Shown here: positions 18,792-20,654 of the stretch, one piece after another
Layout of the letters: every line of letters begins with the position of its first letter
Numbering within the stretch: position 1 is the stretch's first letter
Origin: Gordius albopunctatus
Taxonomy: Eukaryota
NCBI GenBank assembly: GCA_964276515.1
Contig: OZ193909.1
Location: 15,686,001 to 15,750,000 of the forward strand
Direction: 5' to 3'
DNA: 64,000 bases
Notes under the pieces: model-generated
Told to the model about the DNA's origin: nothing
What the model saw: the letters and a program-made list of their open reading frames with translations, nothing else
The model's database searches: none
Program-made: the position numbers and the translations under genes

Positions 18792-20654
18792 CTAGAAGTA
18801 CGGCCACGGATCCCCCCCCCTCCAGAGGATGGGGACAGCGAATCCAGCAACAACTCGCCAACCCCTTCGGGACATGACGAACCAGTTGACATGGCCGAGG
18901 TCTTGAGGGTCATAACAAGTCAAAACAGAAGGGCTCAAGCCCAATTTGCGCAATCCCAGCAAACGATCTCACAGCTGATACAACAACTAAACGTCCAAAG
19001 AGCCGCCCCGCAACCGGCGATCAACATCGTACAGCCGGAGGTAGCGCCAAAAACGGCGGGGGAAAAGCTGAGTGAGATCTCGGACAAGGTAAATAAGCTC
19101 AAGGAGCTCATGGCGACCTTTCCCACCAAAGTATCGCAAAGGGACCGTAAGGAATCCCAATATATATTCCTAGTGGCCGATACACTGTCGGAGGAATCCC
19201 CGGATATTTTGCTTAAGGAAACGGCCGCACGCCTCACTACCCTTGCCACAGCAATCAACTTCAACTTGGCTACGGCGGTGCGAAATGATAAATCATTCGC
19301 GGAGGATTGGAATATTCCGAACCTAGATAGATGCAAGTACAACGTCTATTTAGACGACATCCTTATTTACGGCGACTCATACACCGACGTTCAAGAAGAC
19401 CTGGATTCCCTCTTCACGCTCGCAGCAGAATGGGGCCTCACGATAAACGCACAGAAGTCATCGCTCCTGCCAGAAAGAGACATCGAGTACCTAGGGCTCC
19501 GAATCTCGTTCGACGACCACTCCATTCGCTGTACGGAAAAGACGGTCACCCGGCTCGAGTATGCATCTGACATATTATTCTTCGCATATACTTCCAACAC
19601 TCCCCCTCCCACAAAAATACTGCTGGAAGCGCTGGGAGTATTGAACTACTTCCTATACAACCTGACGGGGATGTCCAAGCTGCTCGCCCCCTTCTACGCA
19701 CAGCTGACAGGGCGATCAAACTTATTTGACATGAACGCGGCTTGCTTCAAGCTGTTTGCAGTCATCAACTCCCTCAAACAAAGAATCCCACTATACGTCC
19801 CCGCGGACATCACGGTATACACTGATGCATCAAGCGAACATATCGGGGTCTCTATCCAAGGCAACGACATCTCCATCACCTTCCAGGACGCAGCAGCGGC
19901 ATTCAACTTCGCGTTGCCGCCCGATCCCCACATAACGCTATGCGAGACCCTCGGAGCACTATATGGTTACCTGGTAGCCAAATACGAAGGACACCCCTTT
20001 CCCGCATTAGGACGGACTCAACAACGGCCTACTACGTGCTACAGAAAGTAGGATCGAACTCGCCGATCGTGGAAGAGCTGATATCAAGGTTCGTCAAAGA
20101 ATACGGCCTCAACGCGCTATTAGCAATACGATATAACATACAATAGATCCCGACAAGTGAGAATCCAGCAGACTACCCGTCGAGAACCTGGATCCCCCCG
20201 GAGAGGTACACGGTCCCCTCGATCCTGACGGGACAGCCACCAGACAGCCGCACAATACCTGACATCTTCGAGGAAGAAGATGACCTCTATGATTGGACCG
20301 AATGGGCAGGCGACGAAATATCGGAAAATGAAGGAGCAGAACGGAGCTAACCCCGTACGCTCACTCCGTAAGCAACTATAAAAGGAAAACCCCAGGTTTT
20401 AAGAACGCTCTTTGCCATTTCGCGTTCCAAGTACCTTTCACGCACCTCCATTTCACCATTTACCTAATATAATATCCCAAAATTTCGTCGCAAAATACAC
20501 ATACATACGCGTTTTCACTTCCTCACGCGCGCGTCATTCACACCTTTACCATATATATACGTATACTTTTCATTTACAAACTATTTCACCTGTTCTACTA
20601 TATATATTACTTACAAATCCACCTGTTCTAAAAACGCTCGCGAACATATGCTAG
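18792..20654 (+). mobile_element. Circularly permuted small RT-RNase H element, copy 2 (internally deleted)
   Basis: ORF1 is fused to [10 protein letters not shown]. RNase H motifs [42 protein letters not shown]. Acidic tail ends at 20350, TATAAAA at 20377, then a leader ending in ATG-CTAG. CTAG is also at the left end. Confidence 0.88.
18891..20051 (+). CDS. In-frame ORF1/RT-RNase H fusion ORF (386 aa) created by deletion
   Basis: Residues 1-147 match ORF1 of element 1. From CKYNVYLDD onward it matches the RT C-half and RNase H. Frameshift near 20005. Confidence 0.85.
   Translation: MAEVLRVITSQNRRAQAQFAQSQQTISQLIQQLNVQRAAPQPAINIVQPEVAPKTAGEKLSEISDKVNKLKELMATFPTKVSQRDRKESQYIFLVADTLSEESPDILLKETAARLTTLATAINFNLATAVRNDKSFAEDWNIPNLDRCKYNVYLDDILIYGDSYTDVQEDLDSLFTLAAEWGLTINAQKSSLLPERDIEYLGLRISFDDHSIRCTEKTVTRLEYASDILFFAYTSNTPPPTKILLEALGVLNYFLYNLTGMSKLLAPFYAQLTGRSNLFDMNAACFKLFAVINSLKQRIPLYVPADITVYTDASSEHIGVSIQGNDISITFQDAAAAFNFALPPDPHITLCETLGALYGYLVAKYEGHPFPALGRTQQRPTTCYRK

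What the first reader, a model, noticed from the sequence alone, without database searches (positions are those of the whole stretch)
18792..20654. Second, diverged family member opened at a different point of the same circular map
Seen: this copy starts inside ORF1 (CTA GAA GTA CGG..., in frame with ATG 18891). It ends after Pol, TATA and leader with ATG CTAG (20648-20654). Overlapping the two terminal CTAG tetramers restores a seamless start, MLEVRPRIPPPPEDGDSESS...MAEV. Cyclic gene order is identical to element 1, but the break is at the ORF1 start instead of in RNase H. The two copies are clearly diverged at protein level. Inference: two independent permutations argue for a circular intermediate and a diversified family. 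The duplicated CTAG suggests a crossover at a 4-bp microhomology.
Basis: partly seen in the sequence, partly recalled or inferred. Interest (0 to 1): 0.88.

Follow-up and report, generated by a model that had tools for sequence, protein, structure and literature searches.

The report
Integrase-free retroelement with a circular map
This is a broken copy of a repeated reverse-transcriptase element with no integrase, whose copies start at different points of one circular gene order, so it likely multiplies as a DNA circle that host repair pastes into chromosomes, as with hepatitis B virus DNA; the proposed CTAG cut site is probably not its edge.

Summary
The letters are as described, but the CTAG crossover is not supported. 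In sequencing-run contigs, other copies carry the DNA left of 18792, and two run from the post-Pol leader straight into 18735-18745. An ATG plus 4-base overlap of this kind arises in 167 of 300 shuffles. The copy most likely spans about 18701-20783 and is opened in the non-coding leader.

The circular map holds. Element 1, once a nested hAT is set aside, is one unit (2,717 nt) opened inside the RNase H tail, with no target duplication and a 27-base host deletion. Element 2 is continuous across that point.

The unit codes ORF1 plus RT-RNase H, with no integrase, tyrosine recombinase, protease or methyltransferase found. Its nearest named relatives are horsehair-worm (Gordionus) proteins. A tree places them outside DIRS, beside proteins with a hepadnavirus-type RNase H, though profile scores lean to DIRS.

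Best reading: a HEART-like or pararetrovirus-like lineage that replicates through a DNA circle and is integrated by host repair. No circle was seen directly.

The parts
18490..18700 (.). Very high-copy host repeat, left part; other copies join it to 20784-20797 without the insert
   Evidence: bin depth about 406,000 (X1) and 1,049,000 (X2); joints 18590/18669/18694/18700 -> 20784-20797
18701..18754 (+). T-rich end of the element leader (left end about 18701-18735, not 18792)
   Evidence: element-level depth; joints 20482->18735 and 20468->18745; modest likeness to element 1's 9341-9390 (no significance test)
18755..18757 (+). ATG at the place of element 1's ORF1 start; in this copy it opens a 40-codon frame. 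Copies differ in the length of the C run at 18812-18820, where the 5' part of ORF1 looks broken (or this is an upstream ORF)
   Evidence: table 4
18792..18795 (+).
18786..19328 (+). ORF1 (capsid/gag-like by position; ATG 18891), cut short by the deletion
   Evidence: 33% identity to element 1's 9673-9981; no Pfam family above cut-off; helical model with no fold match
19329..20003 (+). RT from the YLDD motif on, and the first part of RNase H, fused in frame to ORF1 by a deletion of about 970 bases
   Evidence: RVT_1 E 1.5e-11; contig 19298-19531 identical across the junction; loose ends at 19324/19332 in other copies
20006..20350 (+). End of RNase H (NPADxPSR motif) and acidic tail; broken by a frameshift near 20000-20005 and a stop at 20147-20149; continuous across element 1's break point
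   Evidence: 50% identity to Gordionus P0001 403-470
20377..20382 (+). TATA-like box right after Pol (element 1: 9244-9251)
   Evidence: function inferred
20383..20654 (+).
20655..20783 (+). A/T-rich spacer, AATAAA (20695) and two strong hairpins (20703-20777); joined to element DNA in other copies; probably the element's 3' part, possibly a separate repeat
   Evidence: z -5.8, 0 of 200 shuffles; six joints; no Rfam match here
20784..21085 (.). Very high-copy host repeat, right part
   Evidence: 20837-21118 matches 42823-43058
9068..11740 (+). Element 1, main part: RNase H tail, TATA, leader, ORF1, Pol (several stops and frameshifts)
11741..13366 (.). hAT-like DNA transposon nested in element 1; 8-base duplication at 11733 and 13367; holds the CTAG at 11762
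13375..13419 (+). Element 1, last 45 bases (RNase H, ending just before the NPAD motif)
   Evidence: weak profile score alone: 1.1 bits
57589..57687 (-). Uninterrupted copy of the host repeat into which element 1 is inserted (27 host bases lost, no duplication, 4 shared bases on the left)

Best explanation
This is a defective, internally deleted copy of a multicopy element of about 2.7 kb (ORF1 plus RT-RNase H, no integrase or recombinase found) that likely replicates through a DNA circle and likely enters chromosomes only when host break repair captures an opened circle. Inferred steps: RNA starts below the TATA box after Pol, runs once round and ends with a redundancy; the RT-RNase H copies it, probably inside an ORF1 particle, into a circle; circles opened at different points are joined to host DNA by end joining. 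Shown: element 1 is opened in the RNase H tail; element 2 has its ends in or beyond the leader, upstream of ORF1, not at the CTAG.
For: Element 1 is 2,717 nt and its two ends lie about 19 nt apart on the map of intact relatives. It has no target duplication, a 27-base host loss and 4 shared bases. Element 2 is continuous across that point, and other copies bridge element 2's break. No integrase, protease or recombinase family was found in 6 open frames of elements 1 and 2 and no convincing recombinase motif in the flanks; Gordionus Pol proteins end shortly after RNase H with no methyltransferase. Of 31 listed differences in coding frames, 22 are third-position and 23 synonymous, so the family coded under selection. 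Tree: window plus Gordionus 100/99, sister 98/94 to a group holding a PF00336 protein; grouping with DIRS rejected at p 0.03. In BFVD the top TM-scores are an unnamed 634-residue entry (0.62) and HBV P (0.60, rmsd 4.8), against 0.50-0.57 with rmsd 10-12 for the full-length caulimovirid hits. Layout and size resemble nackedna- and proto-nackednaviruses. Repair-mediated integration is the model given for endogenous caulimovirids (PMC10377300, passages).
Against: No free circle was observed. The two bridging joints rest on one row each, in different runs of one study, with side lengths not shown. Element 2's ends lie where a linear copy would also end. In several copies the leader leads on to the AATAAA and hairpins rather than to ORF1, and element 1 has no such hairpins, which one simple circle does not explain. 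Profile scores favour DIRS over the PF00336 group (RT 218 vs 173; RNase H 73 vs 58), though the DIRS profile is deeper. The tree holds no named HEART or hepadnavirus row and has long branches. BFVD, being a library of viral proteins, cannot show how DIRS would score. No terminal-protein domain, DR1/DR2 pair or core fold was found.
Confidence: 0.6

Rival explanations
1. The element is linear, with a fixed 3' end (AATAAA plus hairpins) and a terminal redundancy or partial tandem structure. Element 2 is a 5'-truncated canonical copy, and only element 1 is rearranged.
For: The insert 18701-20783 ends in the hairpins. Four joints lead from element DNA (19396, 20453 twice, 20489) to 20689-20694, and two more link the hairpins to 20314 and 20352. 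The leader is followed by ORF1 in some copies and by the hairpins in others.
Against: Element 1 is within about 19 nt of one unit length, roughly a 1-2% event for a random fragment of an array (my estimate, 40/2,700). Element 2's ends share only 6 bases. No poly(A) tail. Joint sides are short (19-34 letters) at 80% likeness.
Confidence: 0.2
2. It is a DIRS/PAT/VIPER-type retrotransposon lineage that lost its tyrosine recombinase. It still makes a circle but depends on a recombinase in trans, or is captured by repair.
For: Most of the best non-Gordionus hits are DIRS-like, several with the methyltransferase. Profile scores lean to DIRS. VIPER-like RNase H groups with hepadnaviruses (PMC6681497, passages), so the RNase H signal is not exclusive.
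Against: Tree and AU test put it outside the 19 DIRS/Ngaro-like rows. No split direct repeats and no inverted terminal repeats were listed in either copy. The two copies are opened at different points, not at one recombination site. No VIPER or TATE row was in the tree.
Confidence: 0.13
3. One reading: a circle was opened at the ORF1 start by crossover at a shared CTAG, duplicating it.
For: Both CTAGs and the ATG are present and in phase. Base composition shifts at about 20654.
Against: 18705-18791 is shared with other copies. Bridging joints land at 18735-18745. No 20654->18792 joint and no single-CTAG empty site is listed. Such an overlap appears in 167 of 300 shuffles.
Confidence: 0.04
4. 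The arrangement is an assembly artefact from collapsed repeats.
For: The window is repeat-rich, and the two runs may be the source of the assembly.
Against: Contigs identical to the window bridge 20455-20765 and 19298-19531; contigs with 0-2 differences cover 11453-11769. The hAT duplication and the empty site fit biologically. The left junction near 18700 is not bridged by a listed piece.
Confidence: 0.03

Closest known systems
HEART elements (hepadnavirus-like retroelements, Gong and Han 2018; that paper was not held)
   Same: Endogenous invertebrate RT elements related to hepadna- and nackednaviruses; mobilisation 'not yet resolved' (PMC12440569, passages). Our clade is sister to rows that resemble them by eye.
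   Different: The 7 Ixodes HEART rows carry (Y/H)(I/L)DN where ours has YLDD. Our clade has a long branch of its own. Here a whole unit and a circular map are visible.
Nackednaviruses and proto-nackednaviruses (Blubervirales)
   Same: Small unit (2.7 kb against 2.7-3.5 kb); order TATA, leader, capsid-position ORF, Pol; no envelope or integrase; RNase H ends in an ADxPSR-type motif; RT-RNase H model closest to HBV P among named BFVD entries by TM-score. The end of ORF1 resembles the core helix 4b motif by eye.
   Different: No terminal-protein domain, DR1/DR2 or epsilon was identified; YLDD, not YMDD; ORF1 gave no core fold match; present as many integrated copies; no episome shown.
DIRS, PAT, Ngaro, VIPER and TATE tyrosine-recombinase retrotransposons
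   Same: Gag-like ORF1 plus RT-RNase H without protease or integrase; most similar by raw profile score; circular intermediate (recalled).
   Different: No recombinase, no methyltransferase, no inverted or split direct repeats found; variable opening points; outside their clade in the tree.
Endogenous caulimovirids
   Same: Integrase-free RT genomes integrated by end joining, as rearranged or tandem copies (PMC10377300, passages).
   Different: Plant viruses with protease and movement protein; weaker structural match; a different RT lineage.

Membership tests
HEART | RT groups with named HEART sequences as sister to Blubervirales | tested here: inconclusive
   Sister 98/94 to five unnamed rows, one with PF00336; no named HEART row could be put in the tree; profile scores lean to DIRS
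HEART | Element anatomy as defined in the 2018 paper | not testable with these tools
   Paper not held
Blubervirales (hepadna-, nackedna-, proto-nackednaviruses) | Terminal-protein domain in P | tested here: inconclusive
   No Pfam hit upstream of RT in element 1 or Gordionus P0001/P0002; the region 9986-10439 is broken in element 1 and deleted in element 2
Blubervirales (hepadna-, nackedna-, proto-nackednaviruses) | Core protein of the hepadnavirus fold | tested here: inconclusive
   By-eye likeness to the helix 4b motif, 7 of 15 residues with RMPV; two-sequence model, pLDDT 63, best BFVD E 0.042, no core among 50 listed; no PDB search ran
Blubervirales (hepadna-, nackedna-, proto-nackednaviruses) | DR1/DR2 direct repeats and epsilon | tested here: not met
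   No exact repeat of 12 or more bases, and none placed like DR1/DR2; element 1's leader is unstructured (z +1.6); the copies are decayed, so the test is weak
Blubervirales (hepadna-, nackedna-, proto-nackednaviruses) | Hepadnavirus-type RNase H (PF00336) | tested here: inconclusive
   Gordionus P0096 scores 14.2 bits (E 0.028), below the 22.4 cut-off; window frames give no hit
Blubervirales (hepadna-, nackedna-, proto-nackednaviruses) | Circular episomal genome, virions | not testable with these tools
   Only a circular map from integrated copies
DIRS order | Tyrosine recombinase frame | tested here: not met
   None in the unit-length element 1 or in element 2; other copies in the genome were not seen whole
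DIRS order | Inverted terminal repeats with an internal complementary region, or split direct repeats | tested here: not met
DIRS order | RT-RNase H inside the DIRS/Ngaro clade | tested here: inconclusive
   AU p 0.03 against; profile scores for; VIPER and TATE not sampled
LTR retrotransposons | Protease, DDE integrase, LTRs, target duplication | tested here: not met

The most novel reading that the evidence does not exclude
These are fossils of an unrecognised non-enveloped animal pararetrovirus lineage: a 2.7-kb circle with a core-like ORF1 and an RT-RNase H without a recognisable terminal protein, standing between DIRS-like transposons and Blubervirales. It is shared with horsehair worms and, if this host is an arthropod, may have moved between parasite and host. 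It would give the missing mobilisation mechanism for HEART-like elements: episomal circles, integrated by accident.
Probability: 0.3. Interest if true: 0.88.

Novelty: new variant of a known kind. Interest (0 to 1): 0.68.

Why it matters
How HEART-like retroelements spread without an integrase is stated to be unresolved (PMC12440569), and they are the proposed ancestors of hepatitis B-like viruses (PMC12691608). A multicopy family with a whole visible unit, different opening points and repair-type junctions makes that question testable by mapping copy ends in this genome and in the public Gordionus assembly. If the family is instead recombinase-less DIRS, it still shows an RT element that spread to many copies with no integration enzyme of its own.

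Tried and rejected
CTAG as element boundary: rejected. CTAG at 11762 as element 1's end: rejected, it lies in the hAT. Element captured in the neighbouring Helitron-like repeat: that repeat ends at about 18490, 200 bases away.

No whole genome is held. Word-index protein searches with window frames found nothing. PDB sequence search gave generic RTs only. The 12 metagenome loci match gypsy-like or unrelated RTs best, none of this clade. Four viral-contig scans were empty, so no named Blubervirales row anchors the tree.

Rfam on 8500-21500: 11 weak matches, none at gathering score, none on the hairpins. Protein atlas: ORF1 best score 0.80, a non-result; the RNase H part gave RNase H-like and unnamed clusters. 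ORF1 fold search found nothing; its PDB searches never ran because the machine was busy. No RNA holder listed. Four look-ups of earlier scan findings were empty.

Internal 'skips' in other copies were not counted as deletions, because the letters between are not known. Literature searches listed no description of this clade; subscription papers, including the HEART paper, are not covered.

Full report
SETTING. The window is repeat-rich DNA of about 35% G+C, of an animal by its contents. No genome is held. Two public runs of one study, kept as contigs, hold the stretch; they may be the source of the assembly. The host taxon was not determined.

OBSERVATION. CTAG stands at 18792 and 20651 and ATG at 20648; the frame 18786-20051 is open and holds ATG 18891. 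Against element 1 this copy is 33% identical in ORF1 and 46-54% in Pol. A contig identical to the window bridges that junction, and other copies run on into different sequence there. RNase H is also broken near 20000-20005 and at 20147-20149. This copy is defective.

THE CTAG TEST. Laying both runs on 18705-20775 at 80% likeness shows that the DNA left of 18792 belongs to the family. Summed depth in 18705-18774 is 1,474 and 12,109, in the range of the element body (1,270-6,690 and 6,930-39,690). Contigs identical or nearly identical to this copy stand at about 190 and 410-620, and the host repeat at 400,000 and more. Depth is not a copy number, but 9 and 13 contigs show another letter at 18767. 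Two joints go from the post-Pol leader back into this zone: 20482->18735 (X1) and 20468->18745 (X2). Each appears in one run only, and side lengths are not shown. No 20654->18792 joint and no 18791->20655 empty site is among the 15 of 20 joints shown. Host-repeat copies without the insert join 18590-18700 to 20784-20797 (15 of 164 joints shown, plus table 5c), so the insert is about 18701-20783. An ATG at 18755 sits where element 1's ORF1 starts. The two zones share 115 4-mers, 3 of them with a directly abutting in-phase ATG, and 167 of 300 shuffles of the right zone give at least one. The CTAG crossover is therefore not supported.

THE CIRCULAR MAP. Element 1 lies in a host repeat with an uninterrupted copy at 57589-57687. 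A hAT-like transposon (11741-13366; 8-base duplication; 10 of 11 terminal bases inverted) is nested in it, and the element goes on at 13375-13419. It measures 2,717 nt, begins just after and ends just before the RNase H NPAD motif, with about 19 nt absent. The host lost 27 bases, with no duplication and 4 shared bases on the left. Element 2 and the Gordionus proteins are continuous through this motif, while element 1 and the two joints are continuous through element 2's break. A random piece of an array would come this close to unit length about 1-2% of the time (my estimate). This is the best evidence for a circle. It is indirect.

WHAT IT CODES. Pfam finds only RVT_1 above cut-off in the six element frames scanned. 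In 1.84 billion representatives, 2 of 91 hits score below E 1e-10; both are Gordionus proteins. A profile search lists six more Gordionus proteins or pieces among its top 11 rows, then mostly DIRS-like proteins at E 1e-30 or weaker (120 of 301 listed). The family's Pol ends in NPADxPSR plus an acidic tail, with no methyltransferase. Of the 40 differences listed (815 more not shown), I used the 31 inside ORF1/Pol and dropped 3 upstream and 6 downstream: 22 are third-position and 23 synonymous (p 2e-5).

PLACEMENT. The tree has 38 rows chosen from my own hits, with group labels mine and no named HEART, VIPER or hepadnavirus row. It gives window plus Gordionus 100/99, sister 98/94 to P0121 and the P0119 group, and apart from 19 DIRS/Ngaro-like rows at 97/93. 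Forcing the clade in with DIRS is rejected at p 0.03, with long branches in play. P0119 passes the hepadnavirus RNase H family PF00336; Gordionus P0096 scores below cut-off. P0121 resembles the Ixodes HEART rows by eye. Against this, profile comparison scores DIRS higher than that group for both RT and RNase H. A confident model of P0001 (pLDDT 88) has its best TM-scores in BFVD with an unnamed 634-residue entry (which I recall, untested, as a nackednavirus accession series) and with HBV P; by E-value several caulimovirids and retroviruses rank above HBV P. ORF1 is predicted helical with no fold match. Its C-terminal motif resembles core helix 4b of proto-nackednaviruses by eye and precedes a basic stretch; I recall a similar motif in Ngaro gag, so it does not discriminate.

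UNEXPLAINED. AATAAA at 20695 and two hairpins at 20703-20777 (z -5.8) lie inside the insert and are joined to element DNA in other copies at six places, with short sides. Element 1 has no counterpart. They may be a terminator or 3' end of some copies, which is the linear rival, or a separate repeat that the element favours. Bin 20525-20594 is at single-copy depth and 20595-20664 at about twice that.

MECHANISM. Shown: unit length, different opening points, repair-type junctions at element 1, no integration enzyme found, selection on the frames. Inferred: promoter after Pol, redundant RNA, reverse transcription in an ORF1 particle, circle, capture by end joining as modelled for endogenous caulimovirids. 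Confidence 0.6.

LITERATURE SEEN. PMC12691608: text parts 1-2 of 3; supplement S2 parts 1-2 of 3, S3 whole, S10 part 1 of 3, search hits in S4 and S6, S7 cut short. PMC11551314: part 1 of 2. PMC12440569, PMC6681497, PMC10377300, PMC12241316 and 10.1101/829473: passages. PMC11673190: abstract and outline. Gong and Han 2018: nothing; it and its supplements may already list such elements. Nine searches listed no description of this clade.

VERDICT. Observation partly confirmed. The family and circular map stand; the CTAG break does not. New variant of a known kind (HEART-like or recombinase-less DIRS-like); membership of either is unproven. Interest 0.68.

Noticed in passing
window 11741-13366: hAT-like transposon with an 8-base target duplication, nested in element 1; very high copy by contig depth; a decayed frame at 12079-12384 (-) looks like a hAT C-terminal domain (recalled, not scanned).
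   Followed up: yes
window 20695-20777: AATAAA followed by two adjacent strong hairpins, the first with a GA/GA internal loop; no Rfam family; tied to element DNA in other copies.
   Followed up: partly
window 9986-10439: About 150 codons upstream of the conserved Pol start in element 1, broken by stops; it sits where a terminal-protein domain would be. The last 16 residues align with Gordionus P0094.
   Followed up: partly
window 9997-10096: After the stop at 9997-9999, element 1's ORF1 frame holds a Gly/Arg/Lys-rich stretch like the basic tails of core and gag proteins.
   Followed up: partly
window 17200-18492 and 5617-6951: Two inverted copies of a repeat ending at a CTAG (18489-18492) with a Helitron-like end (motif recalled); a further end at about 41083-41130.
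   Followed up: partly
window 29110-32652 (-): Uninterrupted 1,180-codon gypsy-type frame with gag, protease, RT, RNase H and integrase hits.
   Followed up: no
window 37960-39855 (-) and 45559-48258 (+): Two further decayed gypsy-type pol regions.
   Followed up: no
window 26523-27044 (-): Transposase fragment (DDE_Tnp_1_7, E 2e-8), piggyBac-like by recall.
   Followed up: no
window 21342-21753, 33500-35740, 51680-52680: Arrays of a roughly 95-128-base unit in a very high-copy repeat family.
   Followed up: no
proteins P0119, P0125, P0128, P0131, P0139, P0145, P0177, P0192, P0196, P0121: Unnamed RT proteins from short contigs, the complete ones ending at RNase H; P0119 passes the hepadnavirus RNase H family and P0121 has a 290-residue N-terminal extension. 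They may be further undescribed HEART-like lineages.
   Followed up: partly
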